NCBI GenBank assembly: GCA_046758505.1
Contig: JBHIAH010000001.1
Span: forward strand, 83,898 to 147,897
Length of the DNA stretch: 64,000 nucleotides
Source: Candidatus Methylomirabilales bacterium
GTDB lineage: Bacteria > Methylomirabilota > Methylomirabilia > Methylomirabilales > CSP1-5
Direction of reading: 5' to 3'
Shown here one piece after another: positions 33,450 to 35,365 of this stretch. The notes beneath the pieces are model-generated. The model was not told where the DNA came from. It ran no database searches and saw only the letters and a program-made list of their open reading frames with translations. Position numbers and translations under genes: made by a program. Each line of letters begins with the position of its first letter. Position 1 is the stretch's first letter.

Positions 33450-34352
33450 ATGCACTCCCTCCGCCAGATCCAGCCGGACTACTTCCTCCAGCGCTTTGTA
33501 TCGCCCCCCATGGCCTTTCAGCCTGGGCAGTTCGTCATGGTCAAGCCCTCGGGATCGCTCGATCCCTTCCTGCCAAGGGCCTATAGCATCCTGAGAGTCC
33601 AGCGCCACATGACGGGGAGGAGAGGGAAGCGGGAAGACGTGGTGGAGATCCTCTATAAGGTGTTGGGAAAGGGGACCACCGCGCTTTCGCGCCTCAAGCC
33701 CGGCGATCGGGTGGACCTGCTGGGCCCGCTGGGAAATGGCTATCGCGTGCCGCAGGACCTCACCACGGCCCTGCTGGTAGCGGGAGGAATCGGGGTGCCC
33801 CCGGTCGTCGCGCTCGCTGAACGGCTGGCCGGTTCACAGTTCCCGGTTCACAGTTCAGGGCAAGGAAAAGCTGGACTTCGGTCGTCGGTCGTCGGTCGTC
33901 CCAAAGTGGTGGCCTTTATCGGGGGCAAATCGTCGACCGATGTTTTGTGTCTCACCGACCTTCGAAAGGCAGGAGCCGCGCTTCAGGTGGCCACCGAAGA
34001 TGGCAGCCTCGGGCACCAGGGGCTTGTGACCGATCTCCTCGAATCGTATGTGCGGTCATCGGTCAACGGACTTCGGTTAACGGTTTATGCATGCGGTCCT
34101 CACGCGATGCTTCACGCCGTTGCTCGGATCGCCGAGCGATTCCAAATCCCCTGCCAGGTTTCCCTGGAGGCCCACATGGCGTGCGGCTTCGGGGCCTGTA
34201 TGGGGTGCGTTATACCAGTTCAGAGTTCAGAGTTGAGAGTTGAGAGTTCGAGACAAACTATGAACCGTGAACCGTCAACCATGAACCAGCGGAGCTATAA
34301 GTTGTGTTGTAAGGATGGGCCGGCCTTCGACGCCTCGGAGATTGTCTGGTGA
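33450..34352 (+). CDS. pyrK: Dihydroorotate dehydrogenase electron-transfer subunit, with three repeat-encoded insertions
   Basis: FQPGQFVMVKP, RAYSI, VYACGPHAML, and 2Fe-2S Cys cluster CGFGACMGC...CCKDGP. ATG 33450; GTG 33438 is an alternative. Confidence 0.8.
   Translation: MHSLRQIQPDYFLQRFVSPPMAFQPGQFVMVKPSGSLDPFLPRAYSILRVQRHMTGRRGKREDVVEILYKVLGKGTTALSRLKPGDRVDLLGPLGNGYRVPQDLTTALLVAGGIGVPPVVALAERLAGSQFPVHSSGQGKAGLRSSVVGRPKVVAFIGGKSSTDVLCLTDLRKAGAALQVATEDGSLGHQGLVTDLLESYVRSSVNGLRLTVYACGPHAMLHAVARIAERFQIPCQVSLEAHMACGFGACMGCVIPVQSSELRVESSRQTMNREPSTMNQRSYKLCCKDGPAFDASEIVW
33832..33900. repeat. GGTTCAC/AGTTCMS x2 plus CGGTCGT x3 arrays inside pyrK
   Basis: GGTTCAC AGTTCCC GGTTCAC AGTTCAG, an A-rich spacer, then CGGTCGT x3. 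In frame; encodes SQFPVHSSGQGKAGLRSSVVGR. Confidence 0.85.
34053..34087. repeat. CGGTCAT CGGTCAA CGGACTT CGGTTAA CGGTTTA array inside pyrK
   Basis: Five units in register, in frame (RSSVNGLRLTV), just before the conserved YACGP. Confidence 0.7.
34218..34286. repeat. Inverted heptamer arrays inside pyrK, between the Fe-S cysteines
   Basis: Left arm GTTCAGA x2, GTTGAGA x2, GTTCGAG. Right arm TATGAAC CGTGAAC CGTCAAC CATGAAC. Confidence 0.85.
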
Positions 34353-35365
34353 GTGCGGGCCAGAAAAAGCGTTCACGGTTCACGGTTCACGGTTCACGGA
34401 AAAAGGGAAGCCGTCGTCGGTCGTCGGTCACCGGTCGTCGGTCGTCGCTCCGTCGTCCGGACCTGGCCGTAGAGATTGCCGGGATCCGATTGAAAAACCC
34501 GGTGATGACCGCCTCCGGCACCTTCGGGTACGGGACCGAGTTTACCCCCTTCTTCGATCTCAACGCGTTAGGCGCCATCATTGTGAAGACGGTGACCATG
34601 CATCCGCGACTGGGAAACCCACCCCCCCGGATCGTGGAGACGCCGGCGGGGATGCTCAACTCGATTGGGCTCCAGAATGTCGGAATCGACGCCTTTTGCC
34701 AGCAGAAGCTCCCGTTCCTCCGAACGCTGGCCACTCCGCTCGTGGTGAACATCGCGGGAAAGTCAGTCGAGGAGTTCGCCGACCTGGCCAAGCGTCTCTC
34801 GGACGCCGAGGGAGTGGCCGGGGTCGAACTCAATATCTCCTGCCCGAATGTGGCCGGGGGGCTCGATTTCGGCACCGATCCGCGCCTCACGTATGCAGTG
34901 GTGAGGGCGGTCCGGCAAACCACCCCCCTGCCCATCGTCCCCAAGCTCTCTCCGAATGTGACCGATATTACCGTGATCGCCCGGGCCGCCGCCGATGCGG
35001 GGGCGGATGCTCTCTCGCTGATCAACACCATCGTCGGCATGGCCATCGACGTTCGCAGCCGGAAAGCCACACTCCCCGGAGCCACCGGGGGTCTCTCCGG
35101 CCCAGCCATCCGCCCCATCGCGGTCCGAATGGTCTGGGAGGTCGCCCAGGCGGTACAACTCCCCCTCATCGGCATCGGGGGGATCACGACGGGCGAAGAC
35201 GCCGTAGAGTTCCTCCTTGCCGGAGCCAGCGCAGTCCAGGTGGGGACTGCCAATTTCCTCGACCCGCTGGCACCCATGAAGGTCCTGGCAGGCATCGAGG
35301 ATTATCTTGGCCGCCACGGCCTTGACAGCGTGACCGATGTGATCGGGGCCGCCACCCCCCCCTGA
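34349..35365 (+). CDS. pyrD: Dihydroorotate dehydrogenase catalytic subunit (class 1B), repeat-encoded N-terminal extension
   Basis: IRLKNPVMTASGTFGYG and NISCPNV. The only canonical in-frame start upstream of the conserved core is GTG 34349, which overlaps the pyrK TGA. Confidence 0.85.
   Translation: MSAGQKKRSRFTVHGSRKKGSRRRSSVTGRRSSLRRPDLAVEIAGIRLKNPVMTASGTFGYGTEFTPFFDLNALGAIIVKTVTMHPRLGNPPPRIVETPAGMLNSIGLQNVGIDAFCQQKLPFLRTLATPLVVNIAGKSVEEFADLAKRLSDAEGVAGVELNISCPNVAGGLDFGTDPRLTYAVVRAVRQTTPLPIVPKLSPNVTDITVIARAAADAGADALSLINTIVGMAIDVRSRKATLPGATGGLSGPAIRPIAVRMVWEVAQAVQLPLIGIGGITTGEDAVEFLLAGASAVQVGTANFLDPLAPMKVLAGIEDYLGRHGLDSVTDVIGAATPP
34371..34459. repeat. GTTCACG x4 plus CGGTCGT-type x7 arrays at the 5' end of pyrD
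   Basis: 34371-34398 is four perfect units. 34411-34459 is seven units (CCGTCGT CGGTCGT CGGTCAC CGGTCGT CGGTCGT CGCTCCG TCGTCCG). Confidence 0.85.

What the first reader, a model, noticed from the sequence alone, without database searches (positions are those of the whole stretch)
34349..34470. pyrD appears to begin with a 40-aa extension encoded entirely by heptamer arrays
The conserved class-1B core (LAVEIAGIRLKNPVMTASGTFGYG) has no ATG, GTG or TTG between it and GTG 34349, which overlaps the pyrK stop.
- The intervening 120 nt is GTTCACG x4, an A-rich spacer, then CGGTCGT-type x7.
- It translates to a highly basic Ser/Arg tail: KKRSRFTVHGSRKKGSRRRSSVTGRRSSLRR.
- So either PyrD carries a repeat-derived, disordered basic N-terminus, or translation initiates non-canonically after a structured repeat leader.
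Basis: partly seen in the sequence, partly recalled or inferred. Interest (0 to 1): 0.65.

Follow-up and report, generated by a model that had tools for sequence, protein, structure and literature searches.

The report
Repeat-encoded basic tail on PyrD
In this NC10-phylum (Methylomirabilis-like) bacterium, the pyrimidine enzyme PyrD most likely starts 38 codons ahead of its conserved core, and those codons are mostly fast-changing 7-base tandem repeats that stay in frame in every relative examined, giving the enzyme a floppy, strongly positive tail.

Summary
GTG 34349 overlaps the pyrK stop (GTGA). It is the only in-frame ATG/GTG/TTG upstream of the conserved PyrD core, which begins at Leu39 (CTG 34463). 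The 114 nt between them hold GTTCACG x4, a purine-rich spacer and about 7 CGGTCGT-type units.

They encode MSAGQKKRSRFTVHGSRKKGSRRRSSVTGRRSSLRRPD (net charge +13).

The main evidence is comparative:
- All 27 related NC10 loci, retrieved by core homology alone, plus the window give 23 different junction sequences with 15 different lengths (72-189 nt).
- Every length is a multiple of 3, every one lacks a stop, and every one starts at the GTG inside TGGTGA.
- Strains with 99-99.9% identical flanks still differ in the arrays, by 3 or 24 nt.

So the repeats are translated as a hypervariable tail that AlphaFold2 models as disordered.

The alternative, a structured leader with non-canonical initiation, is not supported. 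The RNA folds no better than shuffles (z +0.6 to +1.8), and no Shine-Dalgarno motif precedes CTG 34463, the start used in a database entry for this protein.

A phase-variation switch is also unlikely, with 0 of 23 alleles out of frame.

This tail is one copy of a heptamer-array family that is dense in this pyr operon, with in-frame copies also in pyrC, carA and pyrK. No protein-level data exist.

The parts
33450..34352 (+). pyrK, the electron-transfer subunit of class-1B dihydroorotate dehydrogenase. Its stop TGA is at 34350-34352.
   Evidence: Pfam DHODB_Fe-S_bind, NAD_binding_1 and FAD_binding_6. PDB 1ep1_B at E 1e-22. ORF.
34337..34340 (+). Shine-Dalgarno-like GGAG, 8 nt upstream of GTG 34349 and inside the pyrK 3' end.
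   Evidence: Read directly from the sequence. GGAGAT is conserved in all 27 related loci, but that stretch also encodes the PyrK C-terminus, so conservation is confounded.
34349..34351 (+). GTG, the inferred pyrD start codon. It forms a 4-nt GTGA overlap with the pyrK stop, the layout expected for translational coupling.
   Evidence: It is the only in-frame canonical start upstream of the conserved core. The same TGGTGA arrangement is in frame with the core in all 27 related loci.
34349..34462 (+). 38-codon N-terminal extension, MSAGQKKRSRFTVHGSRKKGSRRRSSVTGRRSSLRRPD (10 Arg, 4 Lys, 8 Ser, 1 Asp).
   Evidence: Translation. Lies outside the Pfam DHO_dh match 39-320 and outside the PDB alignments. 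pLDDT below 50 for residues 1-33 with no secondary structure.
34371..34399 (+). Heptamer array 1: GTTCACG x4.1, perfect. Encodes the RFTVHGS-type peptide.
   Evidence: TRF. The same 13-mer recurs at 44039 (+) and at 26119, 27165 and 51520 (-). Many other contigs in the same metagenomes carry the 30-mer.
34400..34410 (+). Purine-rich spacer AAAAAGGGAAG (Lys-Lys-Gly-Ser codons).
   Evidence: Read from the sequence. An equivalent purine-rich spacer is present in all junction variants.
34411..34459 (+). Heptamer array 2: CGGTCGT-type, about 7 imperfect units. Encodes the RRSSV(T/V)G-type peptide.
   Evidence: TRF rows 34413-34447 (5.0 copies, 85%) and 34411-34459 (7.4 copies, 73%). T>C polymorphism at 34428 in two runs.
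34463..34465 (+). CTG, codon Leu39 and the first residue of the conserved core. The database's own entry for this window's protein (P0001, MAVEIAG..., 300 aa) uses it as the start.
   Evidence: It aligns to residue 3 of 5ue9_A and residue 7 of 1ep1_A.
34463..35365 (+). PyrD class-1B catalytic core, including the stop codon.
   Evidence: Pfam DHO_dh at E 1.5e-84, profile positions 2-291 of 291. PDB 5ue9_A at E 1e-92. The AF2 core is well modelled.
33829..33902 (+). Sister copy of the same composite (GTTCAC-type x4, purine spacer, CGGTCGT x3), in frame inside pyrK (GSQFPVHSSGQGKAGLRSSVVGRP).
   Evidence: The PDB alignment breaks after PyrK residue 127. Not significantly structured, z -0.68.
34216..34288 (+). 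Palindromic paired heptamer arrays (AGTTCAG-type, spacer, xTGAACC-type), in frame inside pyrK within the Fe-S cluster-binding domain.
   Evidence: The Pfam DHODB_Fe-S_bind match stops at profile position 21 of 41. Forms a hairpin, z -4.08.

Best explanation
pyrD is translated from GTG 34349. That codon overlaps the pyrK stop (GTGA) and follows a GGAG 8 nt upstream, so initiation is probably coupled to pyrK termination.

The ribosome then reads through 38 codons that are mostly two short heptanucleotide microsatellites (GTTCACG x4 and CGGTCGT-type x~7) separated by a purine-rich spacer. It then reaches the conserved class-1B core at Leu39. The product is an ordinary PyrD with a disordered, highly basic (+13) Ser/Arg/Lys N-terminal tail.

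The tail is one local copy of a genome-wide family of heptamer arrays. At this site the arrays turn over very fast, through three kinds of change:
- gain or loss of units;
- array-wide periodic substitutions that look like homogenisation or conversion;
- in relatives, insertion of a 24-nt mini-element.

Because the only usable start lies upstream of the arrays, selection removes every allele that breaks the frame or creates a stop.

What is shown: the anatomy, frame conservation, hypervariability, lack of RNA structure, and presence of the arrays in RNA-derived contigs of relatives. What is inferred: initiation at GTG 34349, retention of the tail in the mature protein, and the view that the tail is a tolerated by-product rather than a selected function.
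For: 1. GTG 34349 is the only canonical in-frame start upstream of the core. The next ones (TTG 34490, GTG 34502, ATG 34505) would delete invariant or near-invariant residues L39, V41 and G45 and the first two modelled strands.

2. All 27 NC10-clade loci were retrieved by core homology alone. Together with the window they give 23 distinct junction sequences and 15 distinct lengths: 72, 75, 81, 84, 93, 105, 114, 126, 129, 132, 135, 141, 147, 150 and 189 nt. All are multiples of 3, none has a stop in frame 0, and all begin at the GTG of TGGTGA. If lengths were unconstrained, 14 further lengths would share one residue class with probability about (1/3)^14 = 2e-7.

3. The constraint acts on recent events.
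- L164 and L165 have 99.3% identical pyrD DNA, but their right-hand arrays differ by about 30% and by a 3-nt indel.
- L162 and L163 are 99.9% identical and differ by a precise 24-nt indel.
- L003 and L085 differ by exactly 3 units (21 nt) in each of the two arrays.

4. Gene calls that start downstream (P0019, P0024, P0030, P0035, P0041) all have the same long open frame upstream.

5. RNA-derived contigs of relatives run without a break from pyrK through the arrays into pyrD. One is a 279-nt contig in X10. A DNase-treated run, X11, carries a further length variant that differs by 57 nt, which is 3 x 19.

6. The homology boundaries fit. PDB and Pfam alignments begin at residue 39. AF2 gives pLDDT 29-34 for residues 1-30.

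7. Translated heptamer arrays in the same operon are unavoidable inside pyrK, carA and pyrC, where they sit between conserved segments.
Against: - There is no protein-level or ribosome-level evidence for this organism, and no RNA run was found for it.
- The RNA evidence comes from assembled contigs of relatives, and DNA carry-over cannot be fully excluded.
- In some relatives the Leu39 position is ATG (L004, L006/L162/L163; P0009 has Met there), so internal initiation could coexist with the upstream start.
- The GGAG and GTGA conservation is confounded by pyrK coding constraint.
- A database entry for this very protein starts it at CTG 34463.
- The junction variants share ancestry, so the (1/3)^14 figure overstates their independence.
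Confidence: 0.85

Rival explanations
1. The arrays are an untranslated intercistronic leader. Translation starts at a non-canonical codon next to the core, at CTG 34463 as in the database entry for this protein, or at another near-cognate codon.
For: - The homology-defined N-terminus is at Leu39.
- Two database entries put 'M' on this CTG: P0001 for the window, and P0019, whose source is listed as NCBI.
- Several orthologues have ATG at this position.
Against: - A non-coding leader made of slippage-prone 7-nt units would not stay a multiple of 3 and stop-free in 23 of 23 variants of 15 lengths.
- The 25 nt before CTG 34463 hold no Shine-Dalgarno-like motif.
- The leader is not structured, z +1.83 and +0.57.
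- CTG is a poor bacterial start codon (general knowledge).
Confidence: 0.07
2. The heptamer tract is a phase-variation (contingency) switch like neuO. Slippage by one unit would turn pyrD translation ON or OFF within the population.
For: - 7-nt repeats lie directly after the start codon, and only lengths divisible by 3 give protein. This is the same logic as neuO (PMC13001214).
- Unit number does vary between relatives.
Against: - 0 of 23 alleles are OFF, whereas 65.6% of 64 neuO genomes are OFF.
- No indel variants appear in four metagenome runs of this organism.
- The tracts are short (4 perfect units) or imperfect (73% matches).
- pyrD is a housekeeping gene embedded in an operon.
Confidence: 0.04
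3. The tail is translated, as in the best explanation, but it is kept because a basic disordered N-terminus is useful. It might bind RNA, DNA or polyphosphate, or affect solubility, localisation or PyrK-PyrD assembly. On this view it is not a merely tolerated by-product.
For: - Every one of the 23 variants is strongly basic in the real frame: +7 to +18, mean +12.5, against +7.4 and +1.0 in the other two frames.
- A Lys-rich start (KKK(R/G)S) is kept even in the shortest variants.
- The tail persists across a clade with only 83-89% core identity.
Against: - Sequence and length change between strains with 99-99.9% identical flanks.
- Composition follows largely from the heptamers themselves, because an array gives the same peptide in all three frames.
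- Other NC10 lineages have only 2-13 residues before the core (P0104, P0072, P0046, P0022).
- Similar arrays sit in loops of pyrK, carA and pyrC with no common function evident.
Confidence: 0.2
4. An assembly or sequencing artefact in a repetitive region hides a canonical start or creates the apparent open frame.
For: Short-read assemblers do break at these arrays. X1 contigs end at 34400 and begin at 34371, and many contigs share the 30-mer.
Against: - Single contigs from X2 and X4 span 33700-34700 with 0-1 differences. X3 agrees as far as 34525.
- 27 independent loci from other assemblies show the same architecture.
Confidence: 0.01

Closest known systems
neuO heptanucleotide VNTR of E. coli K1 prophage CUS-3 (PMC13001214, citing Deszo et al. 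2005)
   Same: Tandem 7-nt units lie directly downstream of the start codon, inside the coding sequence. They are translated as an N-terminal 7-residue repeat, and full-length protein requires a repeat length divisible by 3.
   Different: neuO is a contingency locus with long perfect tracts (3-53 units) and about two thirds of genomes OFF. Here the tracts are short or imperfect, two different heptamers are separated by a spacer, the gene is housekeeping, and 0 of 23 alleles are OFF.
Rickettsia palindromic elements inserted in frame in protein-coding genes (Ogata et al. 2000, Science; recalled from memory, not checked here)
   Same: A dispersed, apparently selfish repeat family is tolerated inside ORFs of conserved housekeeping proteins as extra peptide segments at permissive sites.
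   Different: RPEs are palindromic units of about 100-150 bp, not tandem heptamers. The pyrD copy here is not palindromic and not structured, although sister copies in carA and pyrK are.
Long simple-sequence repeats with 7-nt units in bacteria: cyanobacterial STRR, Xanthomonas/Nostoc GGGAATC-type repeats (PMC4692102) and Beggiatoaceae TAACTGA repeats (PMC4679880)
   Same: Several heptamer families occur as short tandem arrays, often around 4 units, spread over the genome and sometimes as inverted pairs that can form stem-loops. They often lie next to translation starts.
   Different: Those repeats are reported as mainly intergenic and under-represented in coding regions. TAACTGA carries stop codons in forward orientation. 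Here stop-free heptamers lie in frame in four enzymes of one operon. The phylum (NC10/Methylomirabilota) had no hit in my literature searches.
Small dispersed repeats (SDR) nested in heptamer arrays of Nostoc (Elhai et al. 2008, Genome Res; paper not held, listed as ref 43 of PMC3116915; content recalled from memory)
   Same: Relatives carry a 24-25-nt element (GGACTTCGGCGAGCTCAGYCGAGCC) inserted inside the CGGTCGT arrays. It is present or absent between near-identical strains.
   Different: The element is absent from this window. No sequence relationship to the cyanobacterial SDRs was tested.
Class-1B dihydroorotate dehydrogenase PyrD/PyrK of Lactococcus lactis (PDB 1EP1-3) and related entries 5KSW and 5UE9
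   Same: A full-length DHO_dh core (E 1e-92) with the NISCPN active-site motif, and pyrK immediately upstream.
   Different: The solved enzymes have 2-6 residues before the residue equivalent to Leu39. This one has 38.

Membership tests
Class-1B dihydroorotate dehydrogenase catalytic subunit (PyrD) | Full-length DHO_dh (PF01180) domain above the gathering score | tested here: met
   284 bits against a cutoff of 27; residues 39-320 match profile positions 2-291 of 291. 5ue9_A at E 1e-92.
Class-1B dihydroorotate dehydrogenase catalytic subunit (PyrD) | Partner electron-transfer subunit PyrK (FAD and 2Fe-2S) encoded adjacent | tested here: met
   pyrK at 33450-34352, with a DHODB_Fe-S_bind hit and a match to 1ep1_B. 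Its stop overlaps the pyrD start.
Class-1B dihydroorotate dehydrogenase catalytic subunit (PyrD) | Active-site cysteine in the NISCPN motif (class 1 catalytic base; assignment from general knowledge) | tested here: met
   ELNISCPNV is present. C165, P166 and N167 are invariant in the 32-sequence alignment and align with NISCPNV of 5ue9_A.
Heptanucleotide simple-sequence repeat (long SSR) | Three or more head-to-tail copies of a 7-nt unit, more than chance would give | tested here: met
   4.1 perfect copies and about 7 imperfect copies. 21 period-7 runs in the window against about 0.45 in simulations.
Heptanucleotide simple-sequence repeat (long SSR) | Unit-number polymorphism between related genomes | tested here: met
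   L003 and L085 have 1 versus 4 GGTTCAG units, and their right-hand CGGTCNT-type arrays differ by 21 nt (3 units). 15 junction lengths in all.
Phase-variable contingency locus (neuO type) | Repeat unit not divisible by 3, located in the 5' coding region | tested here: met
   7-nt units occupy codons 8-37.
Phase-variable contingency locus (neuO type) | ON and OFF (out-of-frame) alleles coexist among genomes or populations | tested here: not met
   0 of 23 junction variants are out of frame. No indels in 4 DNA runs. By contrast 65.6% of neuO genomes are OFF.
In-frame selfish repeat insertion (RPE-like) | Member of a dispersed multi-copy repeat family | tested here: met
   The same heptamers recur at 11 or more other places in the window and on many other contigs of the same samples.
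In-frame selfish repeat insertion (RPE-like) | Sits inside an ORF without breaking it, at a structurally permissive site | tested here: met
   The frame is open. The tail lies outside the domain and is modelled as disordered.
In-frame selfish repeat insertion (RPE-like) | Palindromic unit able to form a hairpin | tested here: not met
   The pyrD copy gives z +0.57 and the pyrK 33822-33908 copy z -0.68. Sister palindromic copies in carA, pyrK and intergenic regions do fold, z -3.9 to -5.0.
Structured 5' leader or riboswitch-type regulatory RNA | Thermodynamic stability above shuffled controls, or a match to a curated RNA family | tested here: not met
   z +1.83 and +0.57. Rfam at gathering threshold finds only two tRNAs in the window.
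Secretion signal peptide (Sec or Tat) | Hydrophobic h-region after a basic n-region, or a twin-arginine motif followed by a hydrophobic stretch | not tested
   No predictor was run. By eye the 38 residues contain no run of hydrophobic residues.

The most novel reading that the evidence does not exclude
The heptamer arrays of Methylomirabilota, together with the 24-nt element nested in them, may not be passive microsatellites. They could be an actively spreading or templated repeat system that preferentially colonises transcribed DNA of particular operons.

In this window, 10 of 16 array loci lie in the 10.7-kb pyr operon. Arrays appear to be exchanged between loci by conversion. Their RNA or peptide products could be used by the cell, for example as operon-wide RNA signals bound by a heptamer-reading protein, or as tunable basic tails and loops on enzymes.
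Probability: 0.12. Interest if true: 0.75.

Novelty: new variant of a known kind. Interest (0 to 1): 0.45.

Why it matters
- **Annotation.** Database entries for this protein and for several orthologues start pyrD at CTG or at internal GTG/ATG codons, which drops 24-63 residues that are very probably translated. NC10 genomes may carry many such mis-set starts and unexplained low-complexity insertions.
- **Genome evolution.** This is a clean natural experiment. A mutation-prone 7-nt microsatellite sits between the only start codon and an essential enzyme core, and selection on reading frame is visible directly as 15 lengths that are all multiples of 3. Sequence meanwhile changes far faster in the arrays (about 30% different) than in the flanks (about 1%).
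- **Protein science.** Housekeeping enzymes (PyrD, PyrK, CarA, PyrC) can carry repeat-derived, disordered, highly charged segments, including one within the PyrK Fe-S binding domain.
- **Scope.** Heptamer-repeat biology, so far described mainly as intergenic in cyanobacteria, xanthomonads and Beggiatoaceae, would extend to coding regions in another phylum.

Tried and rejected
- **Tail peptide search.** I searched the 5.8-billion-protein database with the tail peptide to find other proteins carrying the module. The 40-aa query found no candidate sharing three words, so there is no census of other proteins.
- **RNA runs for the window organism.** None were found. Only DNA contigs were available. 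RNA contigs had to come from a relative, L006.
- **Literature on heptamer repeats in Methylomirabilis/NC10.** Nothing relevant turned up. Elhai et al. 2008 is not held.
- **Rfam scan of the whole window.** It found only two tRNAs and no PyrR-binding or other leader family.
- **Structured-leader idea.** Rejected on folding z-scores.
- **Artefact idea.** Rejected on four independent assemblies and 27 orthologous loci.
- **Phase variation.** Rejected as the main explanation because no OFF allele exists among 23 variants.
- **Failed call.** One Pfam call failed on a wrong frame and was repeated.
- **Nested 24-nt element.** I checked whether it occurs in the window. It does not.
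Full report
**What is in the sequence**

The window comes from a member of the NC10/Methylomirabilota phylum. The best genome matches to the PyrD core, at 83-89% amino-acid identity, are MAGs labelled candidate division NC10, Candidatus Methylomirabilis or Methylomirabilota.

The finding lies at the end of a pyrimidine operon:
- pyrR-like phosphoribosyltransferase, 25446-26030
- pyrB, 26146-27096
- pyrC, 27193-28536
- carA, 28536-29798
- a small ORF
- carB, 30170-33448
- pyrK, 33450-34352
- pyrD, 34349-35365

These assignments rest.

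The pyrK stop TGA (34350-34352) overlaps GTG 34349-34351. In the pyrD frame no ATG, GTG or TTG occurs between the upstream stop (frame opens at 34313) and 34349. None occurs between 34352 and TTG 34490 (codon 48) either. The only near-cognate codons in that stretch before the core are ACG 34382 and CTG 34463.

Tandem Repeats Finder reports GTTCACG x4.1 at 34371-34399 (100% matches). It also reports a CGGTCGT-type array at 34411-34459, with 7.4 copies, 73% matches and 13% indels, and a cleaner core at 34413-34447. An 11-nt purine-rich spacer separates the two arrays.

The 38 codons encode MSAGQKKRSRFTVHGSRKKGSRRRSSVTGRRSSLRRPD: 10 Arg, 4 Lys, 8 Ser and one acidic residue. The extension is 38 aa rather than 40, and its first seven codons and the spacer are not repeats.

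**Real, and not chance**

The window holds 21 period-7 runs. First-order Markov simulations give a mean of about 0.45, and periods 8-12 give none.

Contigs assembled independently from four DNA runs (hydrothermal vent metagenomes) cover 33700-34700 with 0-1 differences and no indels. The one variant, T>C at 34428, would change Val27 to Ala. A sequencing error hiding a canonical start is thus very unlikely.

**Where the protein family begins**

- Pfam DHO_dh matches residues 39-320, profile positions 2-291 of 291.
- Solved class-1B PyrD chains align from Leu39, which corresponds to residue 3 of 5ue9_A and residue 7 of 1ep1_A.
- In a 32-sequence alignment, L39 is nearly invariant and V41 and G45 are invariant.

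Translation must therefore begin at or before codon 39. An AlphaFold2 model built on that alignment has a well-modelled barrel. Residues 1-33 have pLDDT below 50 and no secondary structure.

**The decisive evidence is comparative**

I collected every close relative of the core without reference to the extension:
- 6 loci from species-representative genomes;
- 14 from metagenome contigs;
- 7 around proteins whose database gene calls start downstream of the extension.

In all 27, pyrK ends with ...TGGTGA, and the GTG inside it is in frame with the PyrD core with no intervening stop.

Together with the window this gives 23 distinct junction sequences with 15 distinct lengths: 72, 75, 81, 84, 93, 105, 114, 126, 129, 132, 135, 141, 147, 150 and 189 nt. 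All are multiples of 3. For DNA built of 7-nt units that plainly gains and loses units, this is not expected without selection on the frame. Fourteen further lengths would fall in one residue class with probability about 2e-7, although shared ancestry inflates that figure.

The constraint is visible on very recent events:
- L164 and L165 have 99.3% identical pyrD DNA and 99% identical pyrK 3' ends. Their right-hand arrays differ at about 30% of positions in a periodic pattern (CGGTCAT units against CAGTCCT units) and by a 3-nt indel.
- L162 and L163 are 99.9% identical and differ by a precise 24-nt insertion.
- L003 and L085 differ by exactly three units (21 nt) in each of the two arrays.

Frame 0 is the only frame open in all 23 variants.

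The short database calls are annotation choices, not evidence for short proteins. P0001 (the window's own entry) and P0019 (source listed as NCBI) place 'M' on a CTG codon. Others start at GTG or ATG codons inside the conserved core. All of them have the long open frame upstream.

**RNA level**

The stretch is not a structured leader. The 151-nt region 34330-34480 folds to -48.8 kcal/mol, while shuffles average -56.3 (z +1.83). The array region alone gives z +0.57.

Palindromic paired arrays elsewhere in the operon behave differently. They form long hairpins with z between -3.9 and -5.0.

No RNA run was found for the window organism. For a relative (L006, a Methylomirabilis MAG), a 279-nt contig from a metatranscriptome runs without a break from pyrK through the arrays into the pyrD core. 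A contig from a DNase-treated RNA library carries a further variant with 75 nt in place of 132, a difference of 57 nt or 19 codons. The arrays are therefore present in the mRNA and are not removed, within the limits of contig-level data.

The 25 nt before CTG 34463 hold no Shine-Dalgarno-like motif, whereas GGAG lies 8 nt before GTG 34349.

**Most likely mechanism**

pyrD is translated from GTG 34349, probably coupled to pyrK termination. The ribosome reads through a repeat-derived segment that ends up as a disordered, +13-charged N-terminal tail on an otherwise ordinary class-1B PyrD.

The arrays evolve in three ways: by slippage, by array-wide replacement or homogenisation, and, in relatives, by insertion of a 24-25-nt element (GGACTTCGGCGAGCTCAGYCGAGCC). 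That element is absent from this window. Because the only start lies upstream of the arrays, alleles that break the frame or introduce a stop lose PyrD and are purged.

I put this at 0.85. Not shown: initiation at the GTG itself, survival of the tail in the mature protein, and whether the tail does anything.

**Rivals**

1. Non-canonical initiation at CTG 34463 with an untranslated leader (0.07). It fits the homology boundary and the database entry, but it cannot explain the frame conservation.
2. A neuO-like phase switch (0.04). The logic is the same, with 7-nt units after the start and protein only when the length is divisible by 3. However, 65.6% of neuO genomes are OFF (PMC13001214), against 0 of 23 alleles here, and no indel variants appear in four runs.
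3. A selected function for the basic tail (0.2). This refines the best explanation rather than replacing it. All variants are strongly basic in the real frame, mean +12.5 against +7.4 and +1.0 in the other frames. On the other hand, the sequence turns over between near-identical strains, and some NC10 lineages have almost no tail.
4. Artefact (0.01).

**Context: a repeat family**

The tail is one copy of a family. Heptamer arrays of several types occur at 16 places in the window: GTTCAnG and its complement, CGGTCnT and its complement, CAGCnGT/CTGATnG, and GTCCAAG/CTTGGAC. They usually come as two arrays around a purine-rich spacer.

Ten of the 16 lie in the 10.7-kb pyr operon. Besides the pyrD copy, in-frame copies are:
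- pyrC 27297-27331 ([11 protein letters not shown]);
- carA 29072-29161, in the linker between the CPSase_sm and GATase domains, which also forms a strong hairpin;
- pyrK 33829-33902, with the same GTTCAC-spacer-CGGTCGT architecture as the pyrD copy;
- pyrK 34216-34288, within the Fe-S cluster-binding domain.

These placements rest.

In that last element, the unit that would read TGA in frame is GTCAACC instead. The orthologous unit in L002, L003 and L004 has also lost the TGA. This is a second sign that these arrays are read by ribosomes.

**Comparison with known systems**

[quoted passage not shown] Specific families have been described in cyanobacteria, Xanthomonas/Nostoc and Beggiatoaceae, but mainly in intergenic DNA and near starts (PMC4692102, PMC4679880).

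Translated 5' heptanucleotide repeats are known from neuO. In-frame selfish repeats in housekeeping genes are known from Rickettsia RPEs (recalled from memory).

I found nothing on such repeats in Methylomirabilota. I therefore rate this a new variant of a known kind. It is of moderate interest, with practical value for annotation and as a clear case of frame selection acting on a hypervariable microsatellite in an essential gene.

Noticed in passing
window 34216-34288 (inside pyrK); also L002, L003, L004: Palindromic paired heptamer arrays lie in frame within the PyrK Fe-S cluster-binding domain. The one unit whose frame would read TGA is GTCAACC in the window. The orthologous unit has also lost the TGA in L002, L003 and L004. 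The stretch still forms a hairpin (z -4.08).
   Followed up: partly
window 29072-29161 (inside carA): CGACGAC-type and CGGTCAT-type arrays form a strong 90-nt hairpin (z -4.87). They are translated in frame in the linker between the CPSase small-chain domain (residues 5-130) and the GATase domain (residues 214-390).
   Followed up: partly
window 27297-27331 (inside pyrC): GTTCAGG x4, followed by a Lys-rich purine stretch, is translated in frame as [16 protein letters not shown]. It lies near the N-terminus of dihydroorotase, before the amidohydrolase domain that starts at residue 72.
   Followed up: no
window 26035-26140 and 27092-27185: The pyrR-pyrB and pyrB-pyrC intergenic regions are filled by palindromic GTTCAnG/CnTGAAC paired arrays that fold as long hairpins (z -4.8 and -5.0). 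Bacillus pyr operons have PyrR attenuators in their leader and intergenic regions (from memory). Rfam finds no PyrR-binding element here.
   Followed up: partly
window 25400-36100 versus the rest: 10 of the 16 heptamer-array loci in the 64-kb window lie in the 10.7-kb pyr operon, roughly an 8-fold enrichment. The reason is unknown. Local spread, conversion or high transcription are possibilities.
   Followed up: no
L005 3912-3936 and 3957-3981; L006 3950-3974; L086 2079-2103; L089 443-467; L092; L163 1447-1471: A 24-25-nt element, GGACTTCGGCGAGCTCAGYCGAGCC, is nested in frame inside CGGTCGT arrays of relatives. It is present in L163 and absent from L162, which are 99.9% identical. It is absent from the window. 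It resembles the small dispersed repeats nested in cyanobacterial heptamer arrays.
   Followed up: partly
L164 versus L165, pyrK/pyrD junction: The arrays differ by periodic, unit-by-unit substitutions (CGGTCAT against CAGTCCT) while the flanks are 99% identical. This suggests array-wide homogenisation or ectopic conversion rather than independent point mutations.
   Followed up: partly
window 34463 (P0001) and L161 1501 (P0019): Database entries give these PyrD proteins an initiator Met at a CTG codon. Other gene calls start at GTG or ATG codons inside the conserved first strand. All of them ignore the in-frame GTG that overlaps the pyrK stop.
   Followed up: yes
window 45851-48515: A low-GC island, about 51% against about 62% for the window. 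It encodes a 441-aa protein that looks, by eye, like a nucleotidyltransferase fused to a membrane domain resembling a CDP-alcohol phosphatidyltransferase, followed by what looks like a PfkB-type sugar kinase. It may have been acquired horizontally.
   Followed up: no
window 11597-11625: A GGTTCAT array lies at the 5' end of the minus-strand ORF 10770-11618. Its complement, ATGAACC, supplies in-frame ATG codons, so another gene may begin inside a heptamer array.
   Followed up: no
window 34428: A T>C polymorphism inside array 2, seen in contigs of two of the four DNA runs. It would change Val27 to Ala in the tail. It is the only variant seen across 33700-34700.
   Followed up: yes
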